From positions 121,520,001 through 121,584,000 of the forward strand of contig OX597815.1 of assembly GCA_951406725.2 (NCBI GenBank): DNA of 64,000 nucleotides. Direction: 5' to 3'. The notes beneath the pieces are model-generated. The model ran no database searches. It was not told where the DNA came from and saw nothing but the letters and a program-made list of their open reading frames with translations. Both the position numbers and the translations under genes were made by a program. Below are positions 4,250-59,225 of this stretch, one piece after another. Every line of letters begins with the position of its first letter. Position 1 is the first letter of the stretch. The DNA comes from Octopus vulgaris (lineage: Eukaryota).

Positions 4250-5213
4250 ATCATCATCATCGTTTAACGTCCTTTCTCCATGCTAGCATGGGTTGGGCGG
4301 TTCGACCGGGGATCTGGGAAGCCAGAAGGCTGCACCAGGCTCCAGTCTGATCTGGCAGTGTTTCTACAGCTGGATGCCCTTCCTAACGCCAACCACTCCG
4401 TGAGTGTAGTGGGTGCCTTTTACGTGCCACCTGCACAGGTGCCAGGCGAGGCTGGCAATGGCCACGATCGGATTGGTGCATTTTACGTGCCACCGGCACG
4501 GAAGCCACTGCTGGCATCGGCCATGATTCGGATGGTGCTTTTTACGTGCCACCGGCACGGAAGCCAGTCAAGGCGGCGCTGGCATCGGCCACGATTCGGA
4601 TAGTGCTTTTACATGCCACCATCTCGGGGATCACAACTGCAGTTTCCATTGATTTTGATGTTGGTGTACTTGACTCAATGGATCTCCTTGAGCACAGTGT
4701 TGAAATGGTGTTTCTTCACTTGCCACCTGCACAGGAGTCAGTCCAGCGGTCCTGGCAACTGCCGGGTGCCGGTCATAGGATTGGTTCAATTTCGGTTCCG
4801 ATTTCACTTGCCCCAACAGGTCTTCGCAAGCAGAGTTTGGTGTCCAATGAAGGGAGGTTGGCATGGGTGCCTGTCGTCAGATGAGATTCAATTTCGACTT
4901 CACTTGCCTCAACAGGTCTTTGTGTGTCCAAGGGAGGAAAGACATGCATAAGTGGGCTGGAATCACTTGTCCTGCCGGGTCTTCTCACGCACAGCATATT
5001 TCCAAAGGTCTCAGTCACTAGTCATTGCCTCGGTGAGGCCTAAAGTTCGAAGGTCGTGCTTCACCACCTCGTCCCAGGTTTTCCTGGGTCTATCTCTTCC
5101 ACGGGTTCCCTCAACTGCTAGGGATTGGCACTTTTTCACACACCTACCTTCATCCATTCTCGCCACCTGACAATACCAGCGCAACCATCTCTCTTGCACA
5201 CCACAGCTGATGC
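4250..5213 (-). mobile_element. 5'-truncated RTE LINE: ORF C-terminus, 3' UTR with ~60-bp subrepeats, (CAT)n tail
   Basis: ORF 5011-5217(-) LRWYCQVARMDEGRCVKKC...RGRDRPRKTWDEVVKHDL matches the RTE C-terminal LRWxGHVxRM...RxRGRP motif. Confidence 0.92.
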
Positions 5214-6747: not shown

Positions 6748-7400
6748 TACTGTTTGGACAGTTTGACTGAGGACTGGTGAGCCAGAAGGCTGCACTATGC
6801 TCCAATCTGATCTGGCAAAGTTTCTACAGCTGGACGCCCTTTCTAACACCAACCAGTCTGAGAGTGTAGTGGGTGCTTTTCCTGTGCCATCTGCACAAGG
6901 GCCAGTCAAGTGGCACTAGCAACAACCACACTCGAATGGGGCTTTTTACGTGCCACCAGCAGAGGAGCCAGTCAGGCAGCGCTAGCAACGACCACGCTCG
7001 AATGGTGTTTTTCACATGCCACTGGCACGCGAGCTACTCAGGCAACAATGGCAATGATCACGCTCAAATGGTGCTTTTAACGTGCCACTAGCACGGGTGC
7101 CAATTAGGCAGTACTGTCATTAGCCACAACAACAATTTCACTTACCTCAACAGGCCTTTGCAAGTGCAGTTTATTGCCCAATGATTGAAAGGTACTCTTA
7201 ATTGGGCTGGTTAAGCTCCACTGGCATAGACCATGGTTATGGTCTCACTTGGCTTGCTGGGTCTTCTCAAGCACAGCATATCTCCAAAGGTCTCGGTCGC
7301 TTGTCATTGCCTCAGTGAGGCCCAATGTTCGAAGGTTGTGCTTCACCACCTCATCCCAGGTCTTTCTGAGTCTATCTCTTCCACAAATGTCTTCTACTCT
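6748..7400 (-). mobile_element. RTE LINE 3' fragment
   Basis: ORF 7245-7463(-) contains GRDRLRKTWDEVVKHNLRTLGLTEAMTSDRDLWRYAVLEKT; UTR subrepeats GGTGCTTTTTACGTGCCAC are present. Confidence 0.88.
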
Positions 7401-11275: not shown

Positions 11276-11554
11276 CATCTGCAACCTTCTTGTTTCATTC
11301 ATATTGCTAATGTCCTTAAGAAAAGGCTGAATGTCACAAATCTAAAGGAATACTCTTGTGTAAAATCTAAAATTTTTATGCAATGAGTAACTATTTAAGA
11401 GGGGTGGGGGAAAACAAAACTAAAGAAAATAAATGAACATGAGATGAATAGAATATTTTTTTATCATTTCTGTTTATACTCATGCTTATAGATTTTGATG
11501 AACTTATAGTTTATTTACATTTGACAGATATTTGTCCTCATCTTGTTTGTTGTT

Positions 11555-11600
11555 AACACAACGTTTTCGCTGATATACCCTCCAGCCTTCATCAGGCGTC
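11555..11600 (-). ncRNA. minimal type I hammerhead ribozyme motif (PLE-type), left arm
   Basis: Minus strand reads GACGC-CTGATGA-AG-GCTG(gagggtatat)CAGC-GAAA-ACGTT-GTGTT. Confidence 0.6.
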
Positions 11601-11822
11601 TTAGGGAAATTTCAAATCTGGGTTCTCATTCCTAAGGTATTTTTCTTTATTATTATTATTATTATTCAGGTCACTGCTTGGAATCAAACTCAGAATCTTG
11701 GGGTTAGTAGCGCACGTTCTTAACCACTATGCCATATGGCTGTGGGCCCACGAGCATATGGCATAGTGATTAAGAGCACATGCTACTAACCCCGAAATTC
11801 CAAGTTTGATTCCAGGCAATGA

Positions 11823-11860
<38 letters not shown>

Positions 11861-11907
11861 TCGAAAAATACCTTAGGAATGAGTACCCAGGTTTGAAATT
11901 TCCTTAA

Positions 11908-11955
11908 GACACCTGATGAAGGCTGGAGGGTATATCAGCCAAAACATGTTTGCAA
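11908..11955 (+). ncRNA. degenerate minimal hammerhead motif, right arm (GAAA changed to AAAA)
   Basis: GACAC-CTGATGA-A-GGCTG(gagggtatat)CAGCC-AAAA-CATG; the changes fit CpG decay of CCGAAACG. Confidence 0.5.
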
Positions 11956-12157
11956 CAAACAAGATGAGGACAAATATCTGTCAAATGTAAATAATGTACA
12001 TAATTCCTCATCTCTTGAATATAGAACTGAATTTATAGTTTGTTCTATTTATTTCTTTTTCTTTTTAATTTACCTATTTTGCATCTATATGGTTTTTTTT
12101 TCTTTTTGTACATTTCTTGGTTTTACTATTCCTTGTAAATTCTTTGTATAACATGAT

Positions 12158-33572: not shown

Positions 33573-33845
33573 AACCTGTTGGCTTATGGCCTCTCTAGCA
33601 AGCGACCTCTCTAGAAAATGGAGGAGGAAAGGACCTTGCTACTCACTGTCAACAACAGGAGATTTTCTTATTTTGGCTATCGATCATAGGTGACCCTGCC
33701 AGCAGGAATTTCCTGAAATGCAAGCACAGTCCAAAGACTTCTGTTCTGGAGTTGAGGATGTTCCCTGGATCAAGAGAAACCTTTAGTATCCTTGCCTGTT
33801 CCATGATGCACATTTTACAACATATGGTCCCATTTATGTAAGGGT

Positions 33846-34712
33846 GTCTTTTAGCTGTACCTCCAATATTAAGAGCATTCTAGTTAGCACCCCTAGACCA
33901 CAAGCAGAGGTAGGATGCTCATGCAAGGACCACAACAAATGCTCAGTGAAAGGCCACTGTGAAGCCAAGGGAGCTGTCTATGAATTTAAGGTACTTGCTA
34001 ACCCTAACAGCAGCAGCAGCTTCCCCAACAGCTACTACAGTAGCAGGGTTGACAGCCACAGAGACATGAACAGAATCAGCGGCAACACCATTGCCAGTTA
34101 TAGCAACATCAACAGTTATAGCAACAATAACAACAGCAGTATCCCTAACGGAAATAGCAGCAGAGCCATCGCAGTGATATCTGTGACAATGCATCCATCA
34201 ACGATGATGACCATAACAACAGCAGCACCATTACCAACACCATTTGTAACGGCACCAACACCATTGCCACTACCAATGACACCAACATCAGTACCAACAA
34301 TGGCAGTAGCAGTAACGCCAACAGATGCAGCATCATCAATACCCGAGCATGGAGATATATCAGTTACTCCAGTAACATATTCAAGCAAAGCCTCTCCGAC
34401 CACAGATCCTCCTTCAGGATACCAGAAAGGAGATACATTACATCATTAGCCAGTCATGTATGGCAGCTGAAAGATGACAGGATTCCACACACAATATAAA
34501 AGGGAATCCTAGAAAATCCTGGCCCCTACATAAACGGGACCAAGCATTGTAAACTGTGCATAGTGGAACAGTTGAGGATACTAAAGGACTCCCTCAACCC
34601 GGGAAACATCCTTAACTCCAGAACGGAGATCTTTGGACTGTGCTTGAATTTCAGGAAATTCCTGCTGGCCTATTGGCACCCACAAGATAACAGGGTCACT
34701 TACAATCAATAG
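33846..34712 (+). pseudogene. PLE GIY-YIG endonuclease remnant (frameshift near 34165, internal stop near 34496)
   Basis: SFSCTSNIKSIL..CSCKDHNKCSVKGHCEAKGAVY [insert] WRYIS..FKQSLSDHRSSFR..TSLASHVWQLK..PYINGTKHCKLCIVE..ILNSRTEIFGLC..KFLL matches the PLE endonuclease pattern CxC..C..G.C..VY..YIG..H.SSF..PY..C.LC..E..LN.R.E. Confidence 0.88.
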
Positions 34713-39212: not shown

Positions 39213-40289
39213 ACTAAGAATAGCCTGGGCAAAGTTCAGAGAGCTCCTACCTCTGCTGGTGGCAAAGGGCCTCTCACTCAGAGTAAAAGGTAGACTGTAT
39301 GACGCATGTGTACGAACAGCCATGCTACATGGCAGTAAAACATGGGCCGTGACAGCTGAGGACATGCGTAAGCTAGCAAGGAATGAAGCCAGTATGCTCC
39401 ACTGGACGTGTAATATCAGTGTGCATACTCGACAGAGTGTAAGTACCTTGAGAGAACAGTTAGACCTGAGAAGCATCAGATGTGGCATGCAAGAGAGATG
39501 ACTGCGCTGGTATGGTCATGTGGCGAGAATGGATGAGGATAGATGTGTAAAAAAGTGCCACACCCTAGCAGTTGAGGGAACCTGTGGAAGAGGTAGACCC
39601 AGGAAGACCTGGGATGAGGTGGTGAAGCACGACCTTCAAACATTAGTCTTTACTGAGGCAACGACTAGTGACCAAGACCTTTGGAAATATGCTGTGCGTG
39701 AGAAAACCCGGCAAGCCAAGTGAGGCCATAACCTGTGGCCTATGCCAGGGGTGTAACCAGCCCACTTATGCATACCTTTCCTTCATTGAACACTAAACTC
39801 TGCTTGCGAAGACCTGTTGAGGCAAGTGAAATCAAAATCAAATTCGATGACTAGCATCTGTGCTAGTGGAGTGCTAAGAGCATCATCCGAGCATGATCGT
39901 TTCCAGAGCAGCTGACTGGCTTTCATATCGGTGACATGTAAAAAGCACCATTCAAGTGTGATTGTTACCAGTGTTGCCTTACTGGCATGTGAAAAAACAT
40001 TTGAACAAGGTCATTGCCAGTGCCGCCGGACTGGTTCCTTTGCAGGTGGCATGTAAAAAACACCATTTGAGCATGACCGTTGCCAGTACCGCCTGATTGG
40101 CCCTCATGCCAGTGGCACGTAAAAGCACTCACTACACTCTCGGAGTGGTTGGCGTTAGGAAGAGCATCCAGCCGTAGAAACTCTGCTAGATTAGATTGGA
40201 GCCTGGTACAGCCATCTGGTTTGCCAGTCCTCAGTCAGATCGTCCAAACCATGCCAGCATGGAAAGTGGACGTTAAATGATGATGATGC
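39213..40289 (+). mobile_element. 5'-truncated RTE LINE (ORF C-terminus, 3' UTR and GAT tail)
   Basis: ORFs 39259-39501 and 39520-39723: KGRLYDACVRTAMLHGSKTW...LRWYGHVARM...RGRPRKTW; ends GGACGTTAAATGATGATGATG. Confidence 0.93.
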
Positions 40290-45072: not shown

Positions 45073-46177
45073 GTTAAGGCAGCTGCACCACTGGTAATAT
45101 ATATATATATATATATATATATTCCTGGCAAGGTAGCTGCAGGAGCAGTATTTAGCCAAAAATAAACCTCTGTACTTGGCTTTTGTTGACATGAAGAAAA
45201 ACTTTGACAGGGTTCCCTCCACTCTTATCTGGAGGTCAATGCAGAAACTAGGGATAGATGGTTGGTGAGAGCTGTACAAGCCATGTGTAGGGATGCTGTC
45301 AGTAAGGTGAGAGGGTTGGCTATGAGTAAAGTGTACAAGTAGTTCACCAAGGATTGGTCCTCAGCCCTCTCTTGTTCATTATAGTCCTCCAGGCAGTAAG
45401 ACAGGAATTTAAGTTGGGCTGCTCCTGTATGTTCCTTTATACTGATGATCTTGTTTTTATAGCTGAATTGTTCCCAGAATCGAAGAAAAAATTTCAGGCA
45501 TGGAACCAAGATCTAAAATTAAAGGGCCTCAGAGTTGATTTAGCGAAAAGCAGTCTTAGTAAGTAGGAAAGCAGACAAATCACAAATCCTTTCGGGTAGA
45601 TGGCCCTACTTGATATGTAGAAAAGGTATTGGTAAAAATTCTGTTAGGTGTATCTGATGCAAGCTATGGACACATAAGAAGTGTAGCAATAACAGAGGAA
45701 GGTTAACAGGGAAAATAGTCTTTGTGTGTGGCAGATGTACAGGTACAATAAACACTAGAAATATGAAGAAAATAGACTCCATCAAATGTCATCAGAGACA
45801 CCTAGAAGTAGTTGATAGGTTTTGTGATCTAGATGACCAAGTCAGCATGGAAAACAGATGCTAGATGATGATGATGATGATGTGTAGATATGTACCAGTG
45901 ACACATAACAGGCACCCATGTTGGTGACATGTAAAAGCACCTGTACCTGTGACATGTAGAAGCAGCCATGCTGGTGACACGTAAAAGCACCTGTACTGAT
46001 GGCACATAAAAGTCACTCATTACACTCTTTGAGTGGTTGGCGTTAGGAAGGGCATCCAGTCATAGAAACCATGCCAGATGAGACTGGAATGTGGTACAGC
46101 TCTCCAGCTTACCAGTTCCAGTCAAATCGTCTAACCCATGCCAGCATGGACAACGGACATTAAATAATGATGATGAT
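45070..46177 (+). mobile_element. RTE LINE RT-domain fragment (~45070-45848) joined to a 3' tail fragment
   Basis: LYLAFVDMKKNFDRVP, HQGLVLSPLLFIIVL, LYTDDLV (YADD-like) and KGLRVD; tail GGACATTAAATAATGATGATG. Confidence 0.88.
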
Positions 46178-57677: not shown

Positions 57678-58006
57678 GTCACTGAGGAAATGACTAGAGA
57701 CCGAGACCTCTGGAAGTGTGCTGTGCGCGAGAAGACCCGGCAGGACAAGTGAGTCCATAACCCGTGGCCTTCTACATGGGATGGAGCCAGGCTACGTATG
57801 CATACCTTCCCTTCTTGGGACACAAAACTCTACTTGTGAAGACCTGTTGAGGCAAGTGAGGATCAGAATCGAAATCGATCAATAGAAATTGCAGATGTGT
57901 TACCAGTGCCGGTGGCATGTCGAAACTCTACTTGTGAAGACCTGTTGAGGCAAGTGAGGATCAGAATCGAAATCGATCAATGGAAATTGCAGATGTGTTA
58001 CCAGTG
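57678..58006 (+). mobile_element. RTE ORF end and UTR fragment with a tandem duplication (period ~98 bp)
   Basis: TEEMTRDRDLWKCAVREKTRQDK*; AAACTCTACTTGTGAAGACC...GTGTTACCAGTG at 57825-57908 and 57923-58006. Confidence 0.85.
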
Positions 58007-59117: not shown

Positions 59118-59225
59118 ATTATTTACATTATTTAAAATTGACGGATATTTGAACTCGTCTTGTTTGTTGTTAACACAATGTTTCAGCCGAAACGTTGTAT
59201 TAACAACAAACAAGATGTGGACAAA
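59118..59225. mobile_element. collapsed copy of the 11511-11994 palindromic element
   Basis: TTGACGGATATTTG..TCTTGTTTGTTGTTAACACAATGTTTCAGCCGAAACGTTGTATTAACAACAAACAAGATGTGGACAAA. Confidence 0.8.

What the first reader, a model, noticed from the sequence alone, without database searches (positions are those of the whole stretch)
11511..12041. Spacer-less palindromic retroelement joining tRNA (Pol III) heads to Penelope-type hammerhead ribozymes
Seen: a ~490-bp palindrome centred on GTGGGCCCAC. Reading outward, each arm has a tRNA-like head (A box TGGCATAGTGG, loop CTACTAA, B-box-like GAGTTTGATTCC), then (AAT)n, then a hammerhead core. The consensus from three arms is GACAC-CTGATGA-A-GGCTG..CAGCC-GAAA-CG-TT-GTGTT, with palindromic AACGTT in place of stem III. 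The outward strands contain no TTTT terminator before the ribozyme. The right arm has an extra ~33-nt tail, and a 14-bp TSD (one mismatch) flanks the unit. Established: PLE pLTRs carry minimal hammerheads with palindromic stem III, occur in inverted orientation and often have a short 3' tail; classical SINEs borrow LINE tails. Inference: a SINE-like parasite of Penelope machinery, in which Pol III starts the RNA and a (dimeric) ribozyme may define its end. A read-through transcript would be a ~240-bp dsRNA. I do not know of this architecture being described, but could not search.
Basis: partly seen in the sequence, partly recalled or inferred. Interest (0 to 1): 0.85.

Follow-up and report, generated by a model that had tools for sequence, protein, structure and literature searches.

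The report
Penelope retrotransposon with tRNA-like promoter
The palindrome is a short, likely back-folded insertion of a Penelope-type jumping gene whose terminal repeat carries tRNA-like promoter boxes, so this protein-coding element is likely started by RNA polymerase III, an enzyme not expected to make retrotransposon messenger RNA.

Summary
The palindrome is real and multi-copy, but it is not a SINE parasite and not a fixed palindromic unit. Each arm is the terminal repeat (pLTR) of an ORF-bearing Penelope/Poseidon-type element. In 29 of 30 loci picked by the endonuclease end, this repeat follows the stop codon directly, and in locus L212 the tRNA-headed repeat runs in frame into the ORF. 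Inverted tail-less arm, ~30-nt tail, 10-16-bp TSD and minimal hammerhead are published PLE integration features. The centre varies between copies, and the two arms share private mutations, so the inversion likely arises per insertion. The new part is a tRNA-like head (A and B boxes) inside the pLTR of a coding element. Copy number falls about 5-fold just upstream of the A box, and the 2.8-kb sense strand has no TTTT (synonymous-shuffle P=0.028; weaker under other nulls; other PLEs have 3-5 per kb). Best reading: Pol III starts the element's RNA, and internal reverse-transcription starts yield solo repeats. Pol III use, ribozyme cleavage and translation are untested, and RNA-seq was uninformative. 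Ten paper searches found no such PLE; Repbase and Dfam were not checked.

The parts
11499..11512 (.). left target-site duplication (14 bp, 1 mismatch to right copy)
11511..11746 (-). inverted, tail-less copy of the pLTR
11555..11600 (-). minimal type I hammerhead, left arm; stem II closing pair lost
11627..11629 (-). start codon position of the PLE ORF, left arm
11649..11666 (-). (AAT)n tract, left arm
11680..11734 (-). tRNA-like head, left arm (A box 11734-11724, B box 11691-11680)
11735..11758 (.). inversion junction with two decayed copies of the family hairpin; predicted RNA 5' end 13-14 nt upstream of the A box
   Evidence: start site inferred
11759..11826 (+). tRNA-like head, right arm (A box 11759-11769, B box 11802-11813)
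11827..11859 (+). (AAT)n tract, right arm
11879..12029 (+). first ~50 codons of the PLE ORF (stop at codon 6 in this copy), overlapping ribozyme and tail
11908..11951 (+). minimal hammerhead, right arm; GAAA mutated, 3-nt deletion
11995..12029 (+). ~33-nt PLE 'tail', on this arm only
12028..12041 (.). right target-site duplication
59118..59225 (.). second, shorter inverted fragment of the same family; junction inside the ribozyme

Best explanation
The window element is a decayed solo insertion of the terminal repeat (pLTR) of an ORF-bearing Penelope/Poseidon-type retrotransposon, preceded by an inverted tail-less copy likely made during integration, and the repeat's tRNA-like A/B boxes likely act as an internal Pol III promoter that starts the element's RNA. 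Steps: (1, shown) The ~2.7-kb unit is head, (AAT)n, ATG, hammerhead, tail, RT, GIY-YIG, stop, 36 nt, next head. (2, inferred) Pol III starts at the hairpin 13-14 nt before the A box and, meeting no TTTT, reads through the ORF into the next pLTR. (3, inferred from the Anolis PLE work) The protein nicks AT-rich DNA and starts reverse transcription internally at one of two sites that bound the tail. A start at the downstream pLTR gives 5'-truncated ORF copies. A start at the first pLTR gives a ~290-nt cDNA ending at the RNA 5' end, i.e. the abundant solo unit. (4, inferred) The cDNA end folds back, often on the hairpin, and self-primes the inverted arm. (5, shown) The result carries a 10-16-bp TSD. 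How an uncapped RNA would be translated, and what the ribozyme does, is open.
For: The pLTR follows the ORF stop in 29 of 30 loci (A box 36 nt after the stop). The pLTR continues in frame into the ORF in 7 loci, one of them (L212) with the whole head. The column majority of 61 segments gives one 835-codon frame, with RT (PF00078, E 5.5e-10) and a C-terminal domain 36-42% identical to Pfam-positive GIY-YIG domains. The head aligns with the genome's own tRNAs (best tRNA-Arg(TCG), z=9.1; other isotypes z 2-7), with tRNA-like A-B spacing. Exact 18-mer counts at -177, -39, +24 and +193 nt from the A box are 951, 1101, 6097 and 12415. Only 6 of 29 head-selected loci continue into the ORF. Sense-strand TTTT: 0 in 2828 nt majority and 28 in 80.6 kb of copies (0.35/kb), nearly all at private positions. 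Comparison: 8-14 per ORF in four other PLE families of this genome and 31 in 6.1 kb of seven related contigs. The two arms of one copy share 23 private changes in 25 copies against 7.6 expected (0 of 5000 permutations reached it). TSD of 10 bp or more in 15 of 17 copies against 3 of 272 mismatched flank pairs.
Against: No direct evidence of Pol III use. TTTT absence is modest statistically: P=0.007 (base shuffle), 0.028 (synonymous shuffle), 0.077 and 0.24 (Markov order 1, 2). GGGG is also absent, and Phe content is not lower than in close homologues. A and B boxes are not better kept than the rest of the head among dead copies (94.5 and 94.9 vs 93.4%). RNA-seq of a coded related organism shows equal depth in both mate directions, no pile of starts at the head, depth just upstream of the head as high as in it, and very low depth over the 5' ORF. 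Palindromes at pLTR 5' ends also occur in rotifer PLEs, where Pol II-type promoter motifs were proposed (PMC3846280), so the boundary does not need Pol III. Exact-match rates differ between the four 18-mers (9/45, 15/22, 33/70, 38/86 in a non-random sample). Shared arm mutations could also come from gene conversion.
Confidence: 0.55

Rival explanations
1. Passive relic: a tRNA-derived SINE head once landed in this PLE's pLTR and is carried along. Pol II transcribes the element, as in Drosophila Penelope, and the sharp boundary is a reverse-transcriptase stop or fold-back at the hairpin, or a Pol II start that happens to lie there.
For: D. virilis Penelope has a LINE-like internal promoter with a DPE (PMC2377424 passages). 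Junction palindromes are general in PLEs. Annotated octopus proteins begin with this pLTR's frame and continue into host exons, which suggests spliced, Pol II-type transcripts from some copies. TTTT statistics are borderline. Another repeat's head in L133 is about 68% similar.
Against: Ten other hairpins with stems of 5 bp or more lie along the element, and ORF truncation points are spread evenly, while most heads stop at this one hairpin. The boundary sits where a type 2 Pol III start is expected (recalled). Both boxes match consensus while the cloverleaf is lost. TTTT is about 10-fold rarer than in control PLEs.
Confidence: 0.3
2. Mixed case: Pol III makes only short pLTR RNAs from solo copies, ending at a flanking T-run. 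These are re-mobilised in trans like a SINE, while the coding RNA comes from Pol II.
For: About four of five heads lack the upstream ORF. In the window copy a T-run lies 26 nt beyond the tail (12056). pLTRs suffice for mobilisation in trans.
Against: No separate short-unit lineage. It does not explain a TTTT-free ORF. Internal initiation on the long RNA gives the same product.
Confidence: 0.12
3. One reading: an independent palindromic SINE parasite that borrowed only the outer ~130 bp from a PLE and moves as a fixed unit.
For: Many full palindromes exist; head plus borrowed 3' end is the SINE pattern.
Against: The head is in the ORF-bearing element itself; junctions vary; arms share private changes.
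Confidence: 0.02
4. MITE-type DNA transposon or assembly artefact.
For: Long inverted repeats.
Against: Asymmetric ends, variable 10-16-bp TSD, link to an RT ORF, and fold-back junctions seen in RNA reads of another organism code (loose ends at the hairpin in 371, 288 and 303 reads).
Confidence: 0.01

Closest known systems
Penelope/Poseidon PLEs (Anolis PAc, PMC11167929; Adineta Pen2a/Pen3a, PMC3846280; Craig 2021, PMC8557442)
   Same: Single RT plus C-terminal GIY-YIG ORF starting inside the pLTR near the hammerhead; 30-40-bp tail on one side; head-to-head inverted pLTR with a palindrome at the junction; variable TSD; 5' truncation.
   Different: A tRNA-like A/B-box head and an (AAT)n leader inside the pLTR, and a sense strand without TTTT. 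The promoter mapped in D. virilis Penelope is LINE-like (PMC2377424).
Dual minimal hammerheads on opposite strands in Schistosoma (Cervera and de la Pena 2014, PMC4209133)
   Same: Minimal hammerheads 100-700 bp apart on opposite strands, read as truncated PLEs.
   Different: No tRNA head mentioned ('tRNA' and 'polymerase III' 0 occurrences).
TRIMp3: Cassandra, Helenus, Ajax (Kojima 2024, PMC10886601)
   Same: Small-RNA-derived Pol III promoter inside a terminal repeat.
   Different: Those are short non-autonomous LTR elements, and the paper argues that their autonomous partners must use Pol II. Here the repeat belongs to a 2.7-kb coding PLE.
Schistosoma SINE-like hammerhead repeats (review PMC6765202 citing Ferbeyre 1998; primary paper not read)
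   Same: Pol III promoter plus hammerhead in one repeat.
   Different: Non-coding, often tandem, with cleavage releasing the unit. Here a minimal hammerhead lies within an ORF and does not set insertion ends.
R2 retrotransposons (review PMC6765202 passages; Pol I co-transcription recalled)
   Same: Autonomous element whose RNA bears a 5' ribozyme and is thought to be translated without a cap.
   Different: Different RT class, site-specific, no promoter of its own.

Membership tests
Penelope/Poseidon PLE | Single ORF with RT | tested here: met
   PF00078 in natural copies; one 835-codon majority frame
Penelope/Poseidon PLE | C-terminal GIY-YIG endonuclease with CCHH-type residues | tested here: met
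   Met by homology: E 7e-30 and 7e-32 to PF01541-positive regions. A direct Pfam scan of our fragments found nothing.
Penelope/Poseidon PLE | No CX2-5CxxC linker between RT and EN (unlike Neptune/Nematis) | tested here: met
   Read from the last 183 residues of L196 only; criterion from PMC8557442
Penelope/Poseidon PLE | pLTR direct repeats flanking the ORF | tested here: met
   L228, L232, L196
Penelope/Poseidon PLE | Minimal hammerhead in the pLTR | tested here: met
   Core and stems I/II in the majority of 50 arms; Rfam gives no hit
Penelope/Poseidon PLE | Ribozyme cleavage | not testable with these tools
   Needs an in vitro assay
Penelope/Poseidon PLE | 30-40-bp tail, inverted 5' copy, variable TSD | tested here: met
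   18 of 19 inverted arms end 15-34 nt before the tail end; TSD in 15 of 17
Penelope/Poseidon PLE | RT tree placement among named reference elements | not tested
   No named references at hand; 39-47% identity to an Anolis protein, about 29% to other PLEs of this genome
tRNA-derived SINE | tRNA-related head with A and B boxes | tested here: met
   parent tRNA not settled
tRNA-derived SINE | Non-autonomous lineage sharing only its 3' end with a partner | tested here: not met
tRNA-derived SINE | Pol III transcription | not testable with these tools
   Indirect only; RNA-seq uninformative
MITE | Symmetric terminal inverted repeats and short fixed TSD | tested here: not met
TRIMp3 (Cassandra/Helenus) | Short non-coding LTR element | tested here: not met
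   Repeat flanks an RT ORF; PBS/PPT not searched

The most novel reading that the evidence does not exclude
An autonomous Penelope-type retrotransposon captured a tRNA-derived promoter and has its entire ~2.9-kb reverse-transcriptase/endonuclease mRNA made by RNA polymerase III. It purged T-run terminators from its coding strand and is translated without a cap behind an (AAU)n leader. Its solo terminal repeats are a ready-made SINE precursor.
Probability: 0.38. Interest if true: 0.87.

Novelty: new variant of a known kind. Interest (0 to 1): 0.62.

Why it matters
Pol III promoters in mobile elements are thought to be limited to short non-coding passengers (SINEs, TRIMp3); a 2024 paper argues that autonomous partners must use Pol II. 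A coding retrotransposon with a tRNA-type promoter and a terminator-free ORF would break that rule and would show a natural route to Pol III-made mRNA. Even without that, the family gives more than 12,000 natural integration products with a defined 5' boundary, two 3' ends and a fold-back hairpin, which makes the unresolved PLE inversion mechanism testable. It also warns that such units will be annotated as SINEs, MITEs or microRNA hairpins.

Tried and rejected
ARAGORN and Rfam on the window: no tRNA or hammerhead, only hairpin-type microRNA matches below threshold. Rfam on 20 copies: none at head or ribozyme. A GIY-YIG (PF01541) search of the genome found other PLE families, none linked to this pLTR; the parent was found through sequence shared upstream of four copies. 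The pLTR peptide search found no full-length PLE protein, only two chimeric annotations. PDB sequence search: three weak RT hits. No DNA context was obtained for the 42 homologues at 55% identity or more: viral and genome contig scans were empty, so it is unknown whether they carry the head. Sequencing runs: no RNA holder listed; three raw RNA runs were laid and were uninformative on strand and start. Phe depletion and box over-conservation tests were negative. Dimer folding by RNAcofold did not give a clear active dimer. Earlier scan findings: nothing. One search gave no hits through a bad BLAST setting (redone), timed out (redone), and the last step failed. Rejected: fixed palindromic unit, ribozyme-defined end, separate SINE lineage, MITE, assembly artefact.

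Full report
Observation. The inverted arms, box-like motifs, (AAT)n tracts, hammerhead-like cores, one-sided tail and 14-bp TSD are at the stated place. Both ribozymes of this copy are damaged, and the third arm at 59118-59225 has no CTGATGA. The genome is 2.8 Gb. Two annotated proteins from Octopus sinensis and O. bimaculoides begin with this repeat's reading frame, so the host is likely an octopus and the family is shared by several species.

It is a family. The search with the whole unit scored 40 of 6355 candidates and returned 90 matches. An exact 18-mer from the arm's 3' part occurs 12,415 times, its reversed control 0 times. In 20 aligned copies the tailed arm ends at a common point, and 18 of 19 called inverted arms end 15-34 nt earlier. 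TSDs of 10-16 bp are found in 15 of 17 copies, against 3 of 272 mismatched flank pairs (three of the 20 were left out because the tail was not located). Arms differ from the majority by 6.6% on average, so the copies are old.

The palindrome is not a fixed unit. The centre differs between copies. Among 29 loci picked by the head alone, 8 have an inverted head directly upstream, 6 continue into an ORF, and 15 do neither; some of the latter have a few folded-back bases or an inverted arm starting further down. Among the first 100 listed matches I counted by eye 18 head-to-head pairs spaced 165-857 bp. Within a copy the two arms share 23 private changes over 25 copies, against 7.6 for shuffled pairs (0 of 5000 permutations; 51 variable columns and the AAT tract excluded). 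This fits copying of one template per insertion; gene conversion is not excluded. Reads from a coded related organism also break off at the hairpin and continue as inverted head, which rules out an assembly artefact.

The parent element. Four of 29 copies picked by the 3' part shared upstream sequence, which translates as a PLE endonuclease end. Of 30 loci picked by that sequence, 29 carry the repeat directly behind it; one has lost the head. Walking upstream gave loci in which the repeat runs on in frame into the ORF (7 aligned) and near-full-length copies with a repeat at both ends. The column majority of 61 segments is 2828 nt with one frame of 835 codons from an ATG in the repeat, and the A box lies 36 nt after the stop. 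RT is found by Pfam. The C-terminus is not found by Pfam directly but aligns with PF01541-positive homologues. Substitutions shared by four or more copies are half synonymous (66 vs 59; private ones 327 vs 1131), so the source elements needed their protein. ORF-linked repeats (40) and short units (42) show no diagnostic difference.

What is known. Head-to-head inverted pLTRs, a 31-bp tail, 8-10-bp TSDs, ORF start inside the pLTR and palindromes at the junction attributed to self-priming are in PMC3846280 (passages) and PMC8557442 (passages). Internal RT initiation at two sites bounding the tail, and a protein-assisted hammerhead not needed for insertion, are in PMC11167929 (parts 1-2 of 4). 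Minimal hammerheads, including pairs on opposite strands, are in PMC4209133 (part 1 of 4 and passages).

What is new. The head resembles the genome's own tRNAs (best z=9.1 for tRNA-Arg(TCG) among 25 distinct sequences; the parent is not settled). It keeps both boxes (consensus recalled) but not the cloverleaf. Exact 18-mer counts are 951 at -177, 1101 at -39, 6097 at +24 and 12415 at +193 from the A box. That is a 5.5-fold step over 63 nt, no step over the previous 138 nt, and evenly spread truncations in the ORF. Exact-match rates differ between words, so the factor is rough. The sense strand has no TTTT in the majority and 0.35 per kb in copies, against 8-14 per ORF in four other PLE families here (three short ORF fragments had 1-2) and 5 per kb in seven related contigs. 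Significance depends on the null: 0.007, 0.028, 0.077, 0.24. GGGG is absent too, Phe is not depleted, and the boxes are not over-conserved in dead copies. RNA-seq shows passive-looking coverage falling from pLTR to 5' ORF, equal in both directions, with no start at the head. The Pol III reading is therefore suggestive, not shown.

Mechanism. I favour a Pol III start at the hairpin with read-through of the terminator-free ORF. Reverse transcription started at the first tail would end at the RNA 5' end and give the solo unit, and fold-back there would give the palindrome (inferred). The predicted cleavage site lies inside the ORF, about 70 nt after the ATG and about 84 nt before the tail end, so it does not set insertion ends. 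A read-through of the window copy folds as a 214-bp duplex, as for any such inversion. The main rival is a passive SINE relic with Pol II transcription (D. virilis promoter, PMC2377424 passages).

Novelty. Pol III promoters in terminal repeats are known for non-autonomous TRIMs, and PMC10886601 (passages) argues that their autonomous partners must use Pol II. Pol III plus hammerhead is known for Schistosoma SINE-like repeats (review PMC6765202 and PMC7761336, passages). Ten full-text searches (listings seen, plus passages of bioRxiv 596502) found no PLE with a tRNA-derived pLTR. An octopus repeat annotation (PMC13282606, part 1 of 3 and one supplement search) does not describe it in what I read, but its library, Repbase, Dfam and subscription papers were not seen. 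Verdict: new variant of a known kind; interest 0.62, up to 0.87 if the coding RNA is Pol III-made.

Noticed in passing
proteins P0001, P0002: Annotated isoforms in Octopus sinensis (LOC115224785 X2) and O. bimaculoides (dystrobrevin beta X1) begin with this pLTR's reading frame and then join host exons; the repeat may act as an alternative first exon.
   Followed up: partly
L266:1233-4256, L268: A young, distantly related PLE-like family with a 1008-codon open frame followed directly by a long poly(T) run and CA-rich repeats; many near-identical copies.
   Followed up: no
L121:430-5672, L122: A young RT + GIY-YIG family (781 codons) with a separate upstream 359-codon frame and 456-bp direct repeats; my hammerhead pattern found no convincing ribozyme.
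   Followed up: partly
L038, L042, L049, L065, L074, L168: The (AAT)n tract of the pLTR is often interrupted by other repeats, an apparent insertion hotspot.
   Followed up: no
L133:4789-4854 (-): The head of another tRNA-like repeat is about 68% similar to this head, with the same box spacing; a possible relative of the donor.
   Followed up: partly
window 4412-4567, 6872-7115, 39983-40124, 45923-46012, 57825-58006: GC-richer tandem units of 25-98 bp, likely other dispersed repeat families.
   Followed up: no
window 33787-34446 (+): A 220-codon open frame with several cysteines; not identified.
   Followed up: no
L249:507 and L249:1034: Hundreds of RNA reads per run leave the element at these two points with near-uniform sequence, suggesting single well-expressed host transcripts that carry a copy.
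   Followed up: no
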